Origin: a virus
Taxonomy: Duplodnaviria > Caudoviricetes
Direction: 5' to 3' (one strand)
Length of the DNA: 64,000 nt
Virus record (IMG/VR): IMGVR_UViG_3300032307_000764
Location: 128,001-192,000 of that record
This document shows, one piece after another, positions 33,101 to 63,705 of the stretch. Made by a program: the position numbers and the translations under genes. The notes beneath the pieces were generated by a model that saw nothing but the letters and a program-made list of their open reading frames with translations, did not search any database and was not told the DNA's origin. Position 1 is the first letter of the stretch; each line of letters begins with the position of its first letter.

Positions 33101-33189
33101 CTTATATAAAGGATATAAAAGATTTCTTAAATGCTATAGTTATTTCTAGAAATCATTTTTTATTAAGACATAGAGTTTCTACATTTGCA

Positions 33190-33579
33190 ATGTTAAATTT
33201 AAAAACAATTACGAAAGAGGATATGATTACATCTAACAACGGGTCCGCTTGGACTAAGTCTGACCGTAAGACTTTAAAGACAATGGTTAAAGAAGGAAAG
33301 GCTATTAAGGATATCGCTGCTGAGCTTGGACGCACCCCGGCTGCTGTGATTTATCAGAAGAGTCAGATGGGATTAACTAAGGTGACCAAGTCAACAAAGG
33401 TACCTAAGGTTAAGAATAAGAACGGGAAGTTGGTTATCCCAGCAGCTAAGACTAAGGATACAGTTCCCACAGTAACAACACGAGACAAAGCTAAGGAGAT
33501 GACTAGCGCTGCCCGTCAGATAGCGAGAGCTAATGGTAAGCGTATCACGATGGCTATGTTCTTTGTAGAGGATTTGTAA
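33190..33579 (+). CDS. Myb/GcrA-like HTH protein with basic tail
   Basis: WTKSDRKTL..GKAIKDIAAELGRTPAAV. Confidence 0.75.
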   Translation: MLNLKTITKEDMITSNNGSAWTKSDRKTLKTMVKEGKAIKDIAAELGRTPAAVIYQKSQMGLTKVTKSTKVPKVKNKNGKLVIPAAKTKDTVPTVTTRDKAKEMTSAARQIARANGKRITMAMFFVEDL

Positions 33580-33599
33580 ACAATTAAAATCTAAATAGA

Positions 33600-34250
33600 A
33601 TGCCAGCACAAATTAAAAGAGCGGTTATGTCTGCCGCAATCAAAGACTATCTCAAGAACAATAAGACCTTGAGAGAGGTTGCTCAGTCACATGGAATGAA
33701 CATGGAGACTTTGCGTAAAGCATTAGGTAGTCGAGTTCGTCCTAGAGGTACACGTTACCTTGCTGATGGATCAGTGAAGACTCCAGGTGTTAAGAATGGT
33801 CGTAAGATCCGTACATCTAAGGCATCTGAGGCAACCCCACGTAGTAACAAACGTTGGACGGCAACTGAAGACGAGATGCTAAGAGATGCAGTGTTAACAG
33901 GTATGACTGTGGGAGAGACCGTAGATCTACTTGGACGTACAGCAGTATCGATCTACTGTCGTAAGTGTTATCTTTTGGACAATGGATACATTCCAGATCC
34001 AGAGACTAGATTCGCTTTACCTAAAGGGATCAAAAGAAATCGTAAGGTAGAAAATGCTACCATTGAAAGAATCGTTGAGATCGGCGAGTCAAGAGAGGAA
34101 GAAGAAAAAGTTCCTTCGGCTCCAGTGACTCAAACAACAACTATTAACTCTATCGAGCTTGAGGATCTTGCTAAGCTTGTTAAGTCGTATGGAGTTAACA
34201 TCACCGTGTCTGTGACTTCGTCTGGTACTGAAGTTAAGATGCACAGTTAA
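33600..34250 (+). CDS. Protein with N-terminal HTH and Myb/GcrA-like HTH
   Basis: TLREVAQSHGMNMETLRKAL; RWTATEDEML..MTVGETVDLLGRT. Confidence 0.75.
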   Translation: MPAQIKRAVMSAAIKDYLKNNKTLREVAQSHGMNMETLRKALGSRVRPRGTRYLADGSVKTPGVKNGRKIRTSKASEATPRSNKRWTATEDEMLRDAVLTGMTVGETVDLLGRTAVSIYCRKCYLLDNGYIPDPETRFALPKGIKRNRKVENATIERIVEIGESREEEEKVPSAPVTQTTTINSIELEDLAKLVKSYGVNITVSVTSSGTEVKMHS

Positions 34251-34371
34251 AAATCAGTTCTGCTTCTGATTTTTTGTTAGACGTGAAAGGGCTAGTTCTT
34301 AGGAGCTGGCCCTTTTTTATATAGGGGGCTCCGGCAGGACCCCTTGCGAATGCGCGTATGCGTGAGGGATC

Positions 34372-34785
34372 TTAGTTGATCTGACCGATGTACATGGTTA
34401 CTTTCCAGAATTCTGGATCCATTGTGTGGTTCATATAGATCTCTATTGACTGTAGGCTTAGAGGAAATTCCCCTATTTCATATTGAATTACGTCAAAAGA
34501 GGTTGATCCTTCTGGTACTTCTATTGATGTAGTGACGTAGTCTCCTGTCTCTTCGTCTTCAGTCTCAACGTCGAAGTACATTTCTTTGATCTTAGCGCCA
34601 TCTAATTCAATTCCCCATGACTTATAGGTTAAGTCTAGCGTCCATGTAACGCGTCCTTCTTGTACTGAGCAGTACTTTATCTCTGATGGTTCATCGTATA
34701 GATTGACTTCCACTTGGTTGCGACCAATCTTGTCGGTGAACTCATTTGGATTTTCTTGGAAATTTTCGAATAGTCTTAGCTTCAT
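34372..34785 (-). CDS. Leader-bearing acidic protein inverted within the cassette array
   Basis: MKLRLFENF. Confidence 0.7.
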   Translation of the reverse strand: MKLRLFENFQENPNEFTDKIGRNQVEVNLYDEPSEIKYCSVQEGRVTWTLDLTYKSWGIELDGAKIKEMYFDVETEDEETGDYVTTSIEVPEGSTSFDVIQYEIGEFPLSLQSIEIYMNHTMDPEFWKVTMYIGQIN

Positions 34786-35140
34786 GGCGATTTTTATTGG
34801 AAGGAACCCCCGCAGAGGTATCCGTTTTTTGTTCTTTTATTTATCCTCAAAATTTTTTTATTCTTTTAAGATGGTGTATATTTGCGGTGTAAATTAACTA
34901 CTCAGAATTTACGCTCATATATTTAGATTTTAATTGTCAAAAAAAACCAGATTCAACAGAGTCTGGTTTTTTTGTGTGCGAAAGTTGACCGAAATGTGTC
35001 CGAAAGTTGTCCGATACATGTCCGATACACATCGTGGGGGAACCTCCGAATTTCCCTAGCCCCTAGGGAAAAATCGGAAGCATTTAGTGAATCATTTTTT
35101 TGTTTTAGAAAAAACTATTACATTTGAGAAAACTGAAAAC

Positions 35141-35395
35141 ATGTACGTAGTCATTAGATCAAACCCAGACGGAGATAGCTATTACATTACATCTTCATTA
35201 GATAACGCCCGTGCTTCTTTTGAAAAAGAACGAAAGATTGTTAAGGAGAGTATTATTGATAGTGAAGAGAGTGTTGCTTTGCTGAGTGTTAAAGAAGACG
35301 AAGACTTTAGTCGAGGTGCTTGGGGTACTTGGTACGGGTGTGAGGTCATCGAAGAATTTGGTGTGACTCCTGATGAATCATATTTTCCTTTGTAG
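35141..35395 (+). CDS. Hypothetical protein (start corrected)
   Basis: ATG after promoter TACATTTG. Confidence 0.65.
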   Translation: MYVVIRSNPDGDSYYITSSLDNARASFEKERKIVKESIIDSEESVALLSVKEDEDFSRGAWGTWYGCEVIEEFGVTPDESYFPL

Positions 35396-35433
35396 AAAAT
35401 TCCATATATTTGTCTTAACTAAATAAAACCATT

Positions 35434-35796
35434 ATGGTAACGAAGGTAAAGAAAGATCAATTGGGGCTTTATGTAATTGCTGGAGGGTACATTACAAGAC
35501 CATTTTGGGGTACCTGTTTTAACGAGGGTGATGAGGTAAAGACCCATCATTTCGGCGGATCGACTCGTGCAGGTGTAACAGTCACCGACAAAAAAGAAAC
35601 CCATAACTTTAAAAGAGATGGTCAATATGAGTACTGGTGCACAACAGGACTCTGTTCAACCAAATACAAGAGGGGCGAATATACTCTGGAAGAAATTGAA
35701 AAGCAAACTGAGTGGTACAGTAAAGATATGATTCACGTTGCGGATCGTTTGACCGAAGCCAATCGCGAATTTTCAAAAACACTTACCCAGTCCTAA
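35434..35796 (+). CDS. Hypothetical protein
   Basis: Own promoter; 120 aa. Confidence 0.7.
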   Translation: MVTKVKKDQLGLYVIAGGYITRPFWGTCFNEGDEVKTHHFGGSTRAGVTVTDKKETHNFKRDGQYEYWCTTGLCSTKYKRGEYTLEEIEKQTEWYSKDMIHVADRLTEANREFSKTLTQS

Positions 35797-35863
35797 CATA
35801 AAAATCATTTTTTTCTTTGTAGAAAATTCCATATATTTGTATCAACCAATTAAATAAAAGGAG

Positions 35864-62202: not shown

Positions 62203-62379
62203 ATGAAAGTAAAAATAGGAGAAAAGATTTACGATTCAGAAAAAGAACCTATTATGGTGATATTATCAGATGCAGACAAAAAAAATATTCACAATATGTT
62301 ACCAACAGCAACAAAATATTGTAGTTTTCCTGATGAAATCCCAACAGAAGATATAAAAGAATTTATGAAGACCACATAA
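62203..62379 (+). CDS. 58-aa protein missed by the ORF track
   Basis: MKVKIGEKIYDSEKEPIMVIL; promoter upstream. Confidence 0.65.
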   Translation: MKVKIGEKIYDSEKEPIMVILSDADKKNIHNMLPTATKYCSFPDEIPTEDIKEFMKTT

Positions 62380-62388
62380 TCATAATAC

Positions 62389-62488
62389 AGTCAGGTGGTG
62401 TAATTGGTAACACGGGGTTCGAGTCCCCAATCTTCTCGAAGGGAAGATAAAGGCTGGCAAGATACAGGTTCGAGCCCTGTCCTGACTA
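62389..62488 (+). tRNA. Aberrant 100-nt tRNA-like RNA; anticodon unassignable (CGA possible)
   Basis: Acceptor AGTCAGG/CCTGACT-A, D-arm GTGT-AATTGGTA-ACAC, T-arm ACAGG-TTCGAGC-CCTGT; 50 nt with two hairpins between D and T arms. Confidence 0.65.
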
Positions 62489-62553
62489 CAAAATCATTTT
62501 TTTAATTGGAAGTAATTCCTTACATTTATACTAACCAATTAAAACAAAACAAA

Positions 62554-62709
62554 ATGAAAACACACAAATTAGTTTACCCACTAGCTTACACTTCACTCTT
62601 CACATTAGTAATAGGAGCAATCCTAATGGTAGGAGGAAATCACATAGGAGATTATATGGTTGCAGGAGGTGCAATCGTAGCAACATTACTCATGCACAAA
62701 TTAGATTGA
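62554..62709 (+). CDS. 2-TM micro-protein (start corrected)
   Basis: MKTHKLVYPLAYTSLFTLVIGAIL. Confidence 0.6.
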   Translation: MKTHKLVYPLAYTSLFTLVIGAILMVGGNHIGDYMVAGGAIVATLLMHKLD

Positions 62710-62853
62710 GTTTGATTGGTTAACACATACAACTCAAATCAGAAAGACCAGCTTCCTCCAGCTGGTCTTTTTTTGTGGACCTTTGACAAATCTTTAAGAA
62801 GACAACTGGAACTTAGCAGGAACCCCCGATATATAAGAGATAACAACAACATT

Positions 62854-63069
62854 ATGAAAGAGTATCTTTTATCAATCAAGAATGGTGAAACCATCAACAC
62901 AATCAAAGCACATACACTAGAAGAAGCAATTCTCTACTTTGCAAAGGTTAAAAACCTATCACAAGATTCATTATTAGACATCTATAGTGTTAATCCTAGA
63001 CCATTCACAATAAACCTTGCTGATTATTGTGAAGCTCATAAAATAGATCCTTACATGCAAACTAAGTGA
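62854..63069 (+). CDS. Hypothetical protein (start corrected)
   Basis: GATATATA at 62828; LEEAILYFAKVKNL. Confidence 0.65.
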   Translation: MKEYLLSIKNGETINTIKAHTLEEAILYFAKVKNLSQDSLLDIYSVNPRPFTINLADYCEAHKIDPYMQTK

Positions 63070-63266
63070 TAGTAAGTATTCCTTATTCCTAAGGTTTACA
63101 TCCCTATTTTCCAGATAATAGTATACTAGCATAAGTCTGAGGAGGTACCCCATTCTATTTTACCATAGCTTAACATAAGGTTTACCATAGCCTAGCATAA
63201 GCTCCTGAGGAACCTCCCTAAGGATACTAAAAACAAGTAACAGGATATATACAATAAAACACAACC

Positions 63267-63494
63267 ATGGAATTACTAAGATTTGAAGATTACATCAACG
63301 AAAATAACAACATATCTGAACAAGAAGATATGATGATTAAAAATTTTAAAACTGATGTTCAAAGAGTACTTATGCAAGACACAGTAGCTAGACCTAACTT
63401 TGCGGAAGGAACCTTCGGGAGTAGACCAGCATCTTTACCAGAAATGATCTCTTCTCTAGAATCTATTATTGCTGATTATAAATCTAAGATGTAA
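63267..63494 (+). CDS. Leader-bearing small protein
   Basis: MELLRFEDYINE; GATATATA at 63244. Confidence 0.7.
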   Translation: MELLRFEDYINENNNISEQEDMMIKNFKTDVQRVLMQDTVARPNFAEGTFGSRPASLPEMISSLESIIADYKSKM

Positions 63495-63705
63495 AGTTAA
63501 CCACATACCTACAAAAAGAGATCTTAGGATCTCTTTTTTTGTGACCATAAGACTTACCATAAGCTCCTGAGGAACCCCAGAAAAGATCAGCATAGCTCCA
63601 GCATTATATCTTACATTAGCTGCATGGGATACTGGATCTGGGCTGATTAGAATCATTTTTTATATTGTGGAATTTTCCATACATTAGCTAAACAAACAAT
63701 TAGCT

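What the first reader, a model, noticed from the sequence alone, without database searches (positions are those of the whole stretch)
33150..63700. 31-kb array of mostly single-gene cassettes separated by a modular terminator-dyad-promoter element
Seen: about 45 near-identical promoters and about 25 terminators (cUUCGg, GCAA and GAAA loop families) almost always ending TTTTTTGTG. These are commonly followed by a spacer (often CTAAGGTTTT..GCAGCCGC), the GAGGAACCCC dyad and the next promoter. Most enclosed genes are small and unrelated. Known: promoter/stem-loop cassettes (PeSLs) were proposed to drive modular shuffling in T4-type phages, but a dyad operator at fixed spacing is not part of that model as I know it. 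Inference: an integron-like gene-capture and shuffling platform and/or a coordinately controlled host-takeover region.
Basis: partly seen in the sequence, partly recalled or inferred. Interest (0 to 1): 0.85.

Follow-up and report, generated by a model that had tools for sequence, protein, structure and literature searches.

The report
Shuffled early-gene cassettes of a phage
A 31-kb stretch of an uncultured freshwater T4-type phage, probably infecting Bacteroidota, holds about 45 small genes that each have a near-identical promoter and often a terminator plus a conserved 10-bp box; related phages reshuffle these genes at exactly those repeats, as in the known 'PeSL' cassettes of T4-like phages and unlike an integron.

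Summary
Window 33151-64000 holds 44-45 co-oriented promoters, 22 hairpin terminators ending in a T-run plus GTG, and about 25 copies of the box GRGG-WW-CCYC. All are far above chance. The array runs about 0.5 kb past the window's end.

The genome is a 248-kb T4-type phage (Gp23 capsid) from freshwater metagenomes. The promoter carries the Bacteroidota sigma-A -7 box at a rigid offset, and the genes lack Shine-Dalgarno sites.

Two viral relatives and at least 120 metagenome contig stretches carry the same modules around largely different genes. Homology blocks begin at the promoter's 5' edge, end at its 3' edge, and also break at the edges of the box and just after terminators. Some cassettes flanked by two promoters are replaced by one promoter in a relative.

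No tyrosine or serine recombinase was found, and there are no attC-like sites. Every cassette has its own promoter. This is therefore a PeSL-type hyperplastic early region, not an integron.

The new elements:
- The directional box lies 31-38 nt after terminators.
- Its distance to the promoter is quantised with a period of about 10 bp (estimated centres near -63, -73, -83, -93), which suggests a protein operator.
- Two D5-like regulators that open the array are candidate binders.

Verdict: a new variant of a known kind.

The parts
33151..64000 (+). Array of promoter-gene(-terminator-box) cassettes; it continues about 0.5 kb beyond the window (last promoter at window-equivalent 64482, last array terminator 64381)
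33151..63690 (+). Promoter set, each about 42 nt plus a 15-25 nt A-rich leader. AATC starts at 33151, 35090, 35376, 35803, 36881, 38178, 38668, 39016, 39702, 40189, 40646, 40967, 41621, 42057, 43934, 44272, 44661, 46301, 46394, 47491, 49247, 49696, 50119, 50658, 51221, 52322, 52576, 53276, 53736, 54777, 55502, 56680, 57134, 57842, 58635, 59287, 59773, 60331, 61047, 61300, 61553, 62120, 62492, 63651. One more AATCATTTTTT at 58951 has an atypical -7 region.
   Evidence: The offset from AATC to T(-12) of the -7 box is 29 nt in 814 of 826 copies family-wide. ATG lies 51-66 nt after the AATC start in most units.
34940..63543 (+). Intrinsic terminator set (A-tract, GC hairpin, T-run, GTG). TTTTTGTG starts at 34969, 36789, 38094, 39559, 40637, 41525, 43295, 46195, 49113, 50049, 51152, 52230, 56533, 57063, 57747, 58882, 59670, 60207, 60761, 62043, 62770, 63536.
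   Evidence: hairpin energies -7 to -21 kcal/mol
35029..63578 (.). Box D, GRGG-WW-CCYC. Forward copies start at 35029, 36833, 38138, 41569, 49157, 50093, 51196, 52271, 57107, 57791, 58925, 60249, 60893, 61011, 62095, 63142, 63207, 63569. Reversed copies are at 46242, 56568, 59715. Variants are at 49640 and 62817.
   Evidence: The box is 100% identical in 7 orthologous modules against relative G2, while the next 30 nt are 57% identical.
57040..57194 (+). One complete compact module: hairpin and T-run+GTG (to 57070), 36-nt spacer, box 57107-57116, 17-nt linker, promoter from 57134, then the leader up to ATG 57195
40646..40966 (+). Single cassette (promoter plus an 86-aa ORFan) flanked by two promoters. 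Relative G2 has one promoter here. This is the PeSL deletion/insertion topology.
   Evidence: (40-nt overlap of the flanking blocks, equal to the promoter)
52576..53735 (+). Two cassettes bounded by promoters 52576 and 53736. They are absent in a natural variant contig of run X3, which also shows a depth drop there.
   Evidence: joint 52575 to 53736; depth 0.56 against about 30
52300..52311 (.). Optional second palindrome AACCTATAGGTT between box and promoter. A second copy is at 57820-57831, and it is also present in relative G1 and in metagenome copies.
33190..33579 (+). First array gene, 129 aa: helix-turn-helix, D5-like transcriptional regulator. Candidate binder of the box or promoter.
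   Evidence: phrog_323 at 1.5e-7; conserved in G1 and G2
33600..34250 (+). Second array gene, 216 aa: D5-like regulator, matching the same PHROG family as the first
   Evidence: (phrog_323 at 6.8e-9)
46460..47431 (+). CobS/MoxR-like AAA+ ATPase, one of the few annotatable cassette genes. It was used to find relatives.
44721..46157 (+). CobT-like VWA protein, paralogue of 47557-49068. This copy is absent from G2 at this place.
47557..49068 (+). CobT-like VWA protein
32300..33150 (.). Non-coding, repeat-rich divergent region at the array's left edge, with CTGGGATTNTCTTGG-type repeats spaced 10-11 nt apart

Best explanation
This is the hyperplastic early-gene region of an uncultured T4-type phage of a Bacteroidota host.

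Proposed working:
- About 45 mostly single, mostly ORFan genes are each transcribed from their own strong, near-identical promoter, read by host RNA polymerase with the Bacteroidota sigma-A. The promoter has a -7 box TAHHTT[T/A][G/A], a T-run at -36 to -30, and AATCA at -41.
- About half of the units are closed by an intrinsic terminator.
- Because the same 40-100 bp regulatory words recur every 0.3-1.5 kb in one orientation, recombination between them deletes, inserts, swaps and reorders whole expression-ready cassettes. This is the PeSL mechanism described for T4-like coliphages and vibriophages.
- The box GRGG-WW-CCYC after terminators is most likely (about 40-50%) a protein-binding operator that acts on the downstream promoter from one face of the helix, perhaps for the two D5-like regulators encoded at the head of the array. 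It also serves as a short homology junction.

Shown: the anatomy, its conservation, the variability of gene content, and the breakpoint positions.

Inferred: promoter and terminator activity, early timing, the recombination pathway, and protein binding to the box.
For: - Phage type: Gp23 capsid family hit, 129 bits.
- Host signals: the -7 box matches the Bacteroidota consensus (numbering from PMC6847099). Only 11% of long ORFs have an SD core and the leaders are A-rich. Sigma-70-type sites are not enriched.
- Promoters are all co-directional with the genes and sit 51-66 nt before the ATG.
- The same modules are present in relatives G1 and G2 and in at least 120 metagenome stretches with 735 promoters, 323 terminators and 328 boxes.
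- Gene content turns over: window genes at 50-64 kb have almost no homologues in G1's equally long array. There are 349 gene families, and 71 of the 83 frequent ones have more than one successor.
- Breakpoints against G2 fall at P, T or D in most of the 10 gaps.
- Family-wide, left ends of homology blocks are 9.5x enriched at -20 to 0 of the promoter start and right ends 5.9x at +40 to +60. There is also 8x enrichment just after the box, 6x just before it, and 4x just after terminators.
- Natural variant contigs join box to promoter or promoter to promoter.
- Box: invariant in orthologous modules while the flanks diverge; 243 forward against 18 reversed copies. Distances to the promoter cluster at 16-17, 26-28, 36-38, 45-48 and 55-59 nt. 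The best period is 10.1 bp, in phase with the basal class, scan-corrected p<0.0005 for 68 linker types.
- D5-like regulators are the first two genes.
Against: - No RNA data could be laid, so promoter and terminator activity and timing are untested.
- Only one third of promoters have the exact host consensus TAHHTTTG. Half have TTAG followed by CTA, so a modified or auxiliary recognition is possible.
- Breakpoint enrichment at conserved words is partly built into a BLAST-end analysis, and intergenic DNA here consists mostly of these words.
- Many Logan-contig joints have short sides and are just repeat-ended contigs.
- The box occurs only where a terminator is present, and its distance to the terminator is tighter than its distance to the promoter in this window. 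That fits a terminator-linked role as well as an operator role.
- Linker types are not phylogenetically independent, so the periodicity p-value is optimistic.
- No RecA-family Pfam hit was found in the 85%-complete genome.
Confidence: 0.75

Rival explanations
1. The modules are purely regulatory and are not recombinogenic. Cassette turnover arises from illegitimate recombination anywhere, and only junctions in non-coding DNA survive. Since non-coding DNA here is almost all modules, breakpoints appear to sit in them.
For: Intergenic space is nearly filled by P, T and D. One indel (37097-37570) has no module at either end. Adjacency is also broken at junctions without modules, with 38% conserved against 19% across modules.
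Against: Ends pile up at the exact edges of the shared words rather than across spacers. There are two-promoter versus one-promoter topologies with the promoter as the overlap. The same linker types recur in new combinations.
Confidence: 0.15
2. Integron-like site-specific capture: an unidentified recombinase acts at the quasi-palindromic box (or at the hairpins) to excise and insert cassettes.
For: Homology blocks end 8x more often than expected right after the box and begin 6x more often right before it. The box is only 10-14 bp, which is short for homologous exchange. The genome is 85% complete, so a recombinase could be missing.
Against: No tyrosine or serine recombinase and no GIY-YIG was found. 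The largest breakpoint peaks are at the promoter, not the box. The hairpins vary in sequence and look like plain terminators. More than half of the cassettes have no box at all. Every cassette has its own promoter, unlike integron cassettes.
Confidence: 0.05
3. The box belongs to the terminator, not the promoter. A bound protein acts as a roadblock or insulator that stops read-through polymerase and shields the next promoter, or the terminator-spacer-box unit is simply one inherited repeat.
For: The box is found almost only after terminators (17 of 24 in the window) at 31-38 nt. Promoters without an upstream terminator lack it. The spacer begins with a conserved GGCTAAGGTTTT word.
Against: The spacer sequence is otherwise free and unstructured. 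The roughly 10-bp phasing to the promoter is not expected for a roadblock. In relative G1 the box-promoter gap is fixed at 16 nt while the terminator-box gap varies from 31 to 39.
Confidence: 0.25
4. The repeated promoter is not a host sigma-A early promoter. It is read by a phage-modified polymerase or a phage-encoded specificity factor (middle-type).
For: Two thirds of copies deviate from the nearly invariant T-6/G-5 of the host consensus. They carry conserved extra words (AATCA at -41, TAGAAAA near -20, GCTA after the box) at rigid spacing.
Against: T-12, A-11, T-8 and T-7 and the spacing fit the host type. T4-type phages use host polymerase. The array includes the first genes after a divergent non-coding region and encodes regulators, as early regions do.
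Confidence: 0.15

Closest known systems
PeSL (promoter-early stem-loop) cassettes in hyperplastic regions of T4-like phages RB49/phi1, T4/PST, KVP40/nt-1 (PMC2839356, PMC4122927)
   Same: T4-type phage. Dozens of repeated composite promoter/terminator motifs are concentrated in a variable region in front of ORFans. Indels and replacements between relatives are bounded by the motifs. The two-motif versus one-motif topology is the same.
   Different: The host-type promoter is Bacteroidota -33/-7 rather than sigma-70 -35/-10. The stem-loop is a separate upstream intrinsic terminator, not embedded in the promoter. There is an extra conserved directional box, an optional second palindrome and an alternating purine-pyrimidine element. 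The array is one contiguous 31-kb block. No experimental data or mini-circles are available.
PmSL of vibriophage nt-1 (Mot-box plus -10 plus stem-loop; PMC4122927)
   Same: A cassette motif that includes a regulator-binding box in addition to the core promoter and stem-loop.
   Different: The Mot box replaces the -35 at about -30. Here the box lies far upstream (estimated centres -63 and further, in 10-bp steps) of an intact promoter, and its binder is unknown.
Mobile integrons
   Same: A tandem, co-oriented array of small, unrelated, frequently exchanged genes separated by repeats containing hairpins.
   Different: No integrase, no attI or attC, and cassettes are not promoterless. Exchange is best explained by homology between regulatory repeats.
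Class I activator sites (for example CRP at -61.5, -71.5, -82.5, -92.5 in E. coli; from general knowledge)
   Same: A dyad-like site upstream of the core promoter whose permitted positions differ by one helical turn.
   Different: The resemblance is in geometry only. The box is directional, the start site is inferred rather than mapped, and no binding protein is known.

Membership tests
PeSL-type regulatory cassettes of T4-type phages | Host genome is a T4-type phage | tested here: met
   Gp23 major capsid family, 129 bits, over cut-off
PeSL-type regulatory cassettes of T4-type phages | Many copies of a conserved host-sigma-type early promoter | tested here: met
   45 copies against 0.34 expected. 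The -7 box is of Bacteroidota type at a fixed offset. Sequence evidence only.
PeSL-type regulatory cassettes of T4-type phages | A stem-loop/terminator forms part of the motif | tested here: inconclusive
   20 of 45 promoters have a terminator within 200 nt upstream. The hairpin is 60-130 nt upstream, not within or overlapping the promoter as in RB49/phi1.
PeSL-type regulatory cassettes of T4-type phages | Concentrated in a hyperplastic region in front of ORFans | tested here: met
   Motifs are confined to genome 160-195 kb. 19 of 20 further proteins have no Pfam match. There are 181 singleton families.
PeSL-type regulatory cassettes of T4-type phages | Indels and replacements between relatives are bounded by the motifs | tested here: met
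PeSL-type regulatory cassettes of T4-type phages | Demonstrated promoter and terminator activity; mini-circles | not testable with these tools
   No raw reads or RNA could be laid. RNA holders were small shares only.
Integron | Adjacent IntI-type tyrosine recombinase | tested here: not met
   No PF00589 hit in the genome, while controls are positive in 14 of 14. The genome is 85% complete.
Integron | attC recombination sites between promoterless cassettes | tested here: not met
   The hairpins are short, sequence-variable terminators with a T-run. Every cassette has its own promoter.
Bacteroidota sigma-A promoter | -7 element TAHHTTTG with nearly invariant T-12, A-11, T-8, T-7, T-6, G-5 (PMC6847099) | tested here: inconclusive
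   33% are exact. 49% have A at -6 and 18% have A at -5.
Intrinsic (Rho-independent) terminator | GC-rich hairpin directly followed by a T-run on the coding strand | tested here: met
   24 sites, mean -12.4 kcal/mol, T5-8 run
Helically phased upstream operator | Site-to-promoter distances differ by whole helical turns | tested here: met
   Period 10.1 bp, in phase with the 16-17-nt class, scan-corrected p<0.0005. The linker types are not independent.
Helically phased upstream operator | A protein binds the site and changes promoter output | not testable with these tools
   D5-like regulators are candidates only.

The most novel reading that the evidence does not exclude
The 10-bp box is the core site of a dedicated cassette-mobilising activity: an unrecognised recombinase or nuclease encoded by the phage or its host. 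On this reading the terminator-box-promoter module is a true mobile-element end rather than a passive homology patch. This would be a phage gene-capture system distinct from both integrons and PeSL homologous exchange.
Probability: 0.06. Interest if true: 0.85.

Novelty: new variant of a known kind. Interest (0 to 1): 0.55.

Why it matters
It extends the PeSL idea, in which regulatory repeats act as the joints of phage gene shuffling, from enterobacterial and vibrio T4-likes to a different host phylum with a different promoter grammar.

The comparative sample is far larger than before: more than 800 promoter copies and about 350 gene families from natural freshwater populations.

It also gives the following:
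- a ready-made consensus for a very strong Bacteroidota promoter, leader and terminator set;
- a testable new cis-element whose helical phasing suggests coordinated control of about 20 early units;
- a catalogue of expression-ready ORFans that are likely host-takeover or anti-defence genes.

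Tried and rejected
- blastn of 8 kb of the array against GenBank phages gave no relative.
- ARAGORN found no tRNA in the array.
- The IMG/VR pattern scan found only G1, G2 and a near-duplicate of G1, G003, whose promoter spacing is identical. G003 was not used further.
- A second hairpin in the terminator-box spacer was rejected: mean energy -4.8 against -4.0 kcal/mol for shuffles.
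- The box as an RNA hairpin was judged unlikely by reading the sequence. The commonest form, GAGG-AA-CCCC, has a mismatch and a 2-nt loop. The box also occurs reversed in orthologous positions.
- The box as an ECF-type -35, or as a -30 box of a second promoter, was rejected on reading the aligned linkers, which show no conserved -10/-7 word at a fixed distance.
- PDB sequence searches with the two regulators were uninformative.
- The multi-copy family 36 (40249, 60408) has only a faint match to an HNH PHROG. On reading the translated sequence it lacks an obvious Cys/His motif, so it was not taken as an endonuclease.
- RNA: no RNA holder was listed for the 10-kb query. Only small-share metatranscriptome holders were found for one gene.
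- Most joints have sides of 21-50 nt, so they are contigs ending in repeats and were not counted as variants.
- A quick look for a T4-like late promoter word was uninformative.

Full report
**What is there**

The window is bases 128001-192000 of a 248,191-bp single-contig virus record.

From 33151 to the window's end, the word AATCATTTTTT occurs 36 times, all on the + strand. There are 40 copies in the whole window against 0.34 expected. Allowing one mismatch and requiring a -7 box gives 45 sites between 33151 and 64482.

Each site sits 51-66 nt before an ATG of a + strand ORF. 30 of 43 units hold a single gene, and the median gene is 95 aa.

TTTTTTGTG occurs 23 times against 1.6 expected, and 22 copies are in the region.

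GAGGAACCCC with up to one mismatch occurs 25 times against 2.2 expected. Genome-wide, all three words are confined to 160-195 kb.

**What kind of genome**

The record encodes a Gp23-family major capsid protein (129 bits), so it is a T4-type phage. CheckV estimates 85% completeness. Near-identical DNA is held by freshwater metagenome runs.

The promoter ends in TAHHTT[T/A][G/A]. Its T and A lie 29 nt after the AATC start in 814 of 826 copies. This matches the Bacteroidota sigma-A -7 element TAHHTTTG, with T-12, A-11, T-8, T-7, T-6 and G-5 as numbered in Flavobacterium johnsoniae (PMC6847099).

Only 11% of long ORFs have a Shine-Dalgarno core, and the leaders are A-rich. Sigma-70-type sites are not enriched. 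I infer a Bacteroidota host and host-polymerase promoters.

One caveat applies. Only 33% of copies have the exact consensus; 49% read TTAG followed by CTA, and 18% read TTTA.

**Relatives**

A CobS-like ATPase in the array led to two viral contigs:
- G2 is about 80% identical in nucleotides, and its contig ends at window position 56319.
- G1 is about 70% identical and 206 kb long.

Both carry the same promoter, terminator and box. G1 has about 52 promoters over 37 kb.

An exact 24-nt promoter word found at least 120 further stretches in metagenome contigs. These total 592 kb and hold 735 promoters, 323 terminators and 328 boxes, almost all in one orientation. More distant phages that share the ATPase have other repeated promoters of their own.

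**Is gene order conserved?**

No. Window 33-50 kb is largely collinear with G2 but has cassette-sized indels. Against G1 it is reordered. Window genes at 50-64 kb have almost no homologues in G1's array, although the modules are the same.

Across all arrays there are 349 gene families, of which 181 are singletons. Of the 83 families seen at least four times, 71 have more than one successor and 57 have three or more. Adjacency is kept in 19% of comparisons across a module and in 38% where there is no module.

**Where are the breakpoints?**

Against G2, most ends of the ten gaps lie at a promoter, box or terminator. The cassette 40646-40966 is flanked by two promoters where G2 has one, and the flanking blocks overlap by the 40-nt promoter. 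G2 has extra cassettes inserted at window 38149/38178 and at 38665. One indel, 37097-37570, has no module at either end.

Family-wide enrichment of homology-block ends:
- Left ends are 9.5-fold enriched in the 20 nt before the promoter start.
- Right ends are 5.9-fold enriched at +40 to +60, the end of the promoter and leader.
- Ends are also 8-fold enriched just after the box, 6-fold just before it, and 4-fold just after terminators.

Natural variant contigs agree with this:
- An X2 contig runs from 56278 to 57118 (the box) and then continues at 62120 (a promoter).
- An X3 contig joins 52575 to 53736, promoter to promoter, and depth there collapses.
- The box at 49157 is joined through alternative linkers to promoters at 55502 or 58635.

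Many other joints have short sides and only show contigs ending in repeats. I did not count those.

A further caveat: BLAST ends will stop at the edges of shared words by construction, and intergenic DNA here is mostly such words. The enrichment shows that junctions lie in or at the modules. It does not prove that the modules cause the exchange.

**Integron or PeSL?**

No tyrosine recombinase, serine recombinase or GIY-YIG nuclease was found. The hairpins are variable, ordinary terminators, and each cassette has its own promoter. The defining features of an integron are therefore not met.

The anatomy and the comparative pattern match the PeSL cassettes of T4-like phages. Those are repeated early promoters with stem-loops in hyperplastic regions, with indels bounded by them and a proposed exchange between neighbouring copies (PMC2839356; PMC4122927). 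That literature also describes a variant with a regulator box, the PmSL with a Mot box.

**The box**

It reads G[A/G]GG-[A/T][A/T]-CC[C/T]C. In G1 it is the perfect extended dyad CTGGGG-AA-CCCCAG.

- Orientation: forward in 243 copies and reversed in 18. Reversed copies are conserved at orthologous places.
- Conservation: in seven orthologous modules between the window and G2, the box and the T-run+GTG are 100% identical. The spacer is 81% identical and the 30 nt after the box are 57% identical.
- Distance from the terminator: 31-38 nt after the GTG. The spacer is free in sequence and unstructured, apart from a GGCTAAGGTTTT word at its start.
- Distance to the promoter: clustered at 16-17, 26-28, 36-38, 45-48 and 55-59 nt. 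After collapsing to 132 linker types, the 68 types of 22-64 nt give a best period of 10.1 bp, in phase with the 16-17-nt class, with scan-corrected p<0.0005.
- Estimated position: using the Flavobacterium numbering, the box centre falls near -63, -73, -83, -93 and -103. This depends on an inferred start site.

This geometry is what a protein contacting polymerase from one helical face would give.

The first two genes of the array are conserved in G1 and G2. Both match the PHROG family of D5-like transcriptional regulators, and they are the obvious candidate binders.

Against the operator reading, the box is found only where a terminator is present. A terminator-linked insulator role, or simple co-inheritance of terminator and box, therefore remains open.

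**Verdict**

This is a real and striking array.

What is new:
- the host phylum and promoter grammar;
- the scale of the natural sample;
- the phased box, together with the accessory palindromes.

I rate it a new variant of a known kind, with interest 0.55.

Noticed in passing
window 62389-62488 (+): A tRNA-like gene inside a cassette. Rfam tRNA scores 43 bits, but 45 nt stand where the anticodon arm (17 nt) should be, including a second T-arm-like hairpin. ARAGORN does not call it. Contig depth there is enormous in run X3, so the sequence is shared with abundant organisms.
   Followed up: partly
window 8909-9400 (+): A phage-borne tmRNA gene (Rfam 73 bits; ARAGORN tag peptide EEAEMLLAA).
   Followed up: no
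window 32770-32810, 34325-34365, 49185-49215, 56640-56665, 59735-59760; also G1 and many metagenome linkers: A recurring intergenic element: a GC-rich arm followed by about 21 nt of strictly alternating purine-pyrimidine (GCGTATACGTGCGTACGTACG type). It lies between box and promoter in the longest linkers. Its function is unknown; by composition it is prone to Z-DNA.
   Followed up: partly
window 32300-33150: An 850-bp non-coding divergent region with CTGGGATTNTCTTGG-type repeats spaced 10-11 nt apart and several GC palindromes. It is iteron-like and could be an origin or a regulatory hub at the head of the array.
   Followed up: partly
window 46301-46393 and 49247-49560: Two promoters with no called ORF behind them. 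The first is followed 93 nt later by another promoter. Possible small RNAs or very short peptides.
   Followed up: no
window 57600-57745: About 140 nt of non-coding sequence between gene 57390-57611 and its terminator, with GC-rich pairing potential. Possible structured RNA; not tested.
   Followed up: no
window promoters; family-wide: Three discrete promoter classes, distinguished by the last bases of the -7 box (TTAG+CTA 49%, TTTG 33%, TTTA 18%). They show no difference in association with the box or a terminator. They might mark different strength or timing.
   Followed up: partly
window 40249-40596 and 60408-60722; 62 copies in 40 metagenome stretches: A multi-copy small protein family with a basic N-terminal helix and 28 different downstream neighbours. 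It is the most mobile cassette gene in the family.
   Followed up: partly
L011, L012 (distant relatives sharing the ATPase): A different long repeated promoter (CTTTAACA ... TATTTTTTTATTC ... TAHHTTTGTAT). Lineage-specific extended early promoters therefore seem general in this wider phage group.
   Followed up: no
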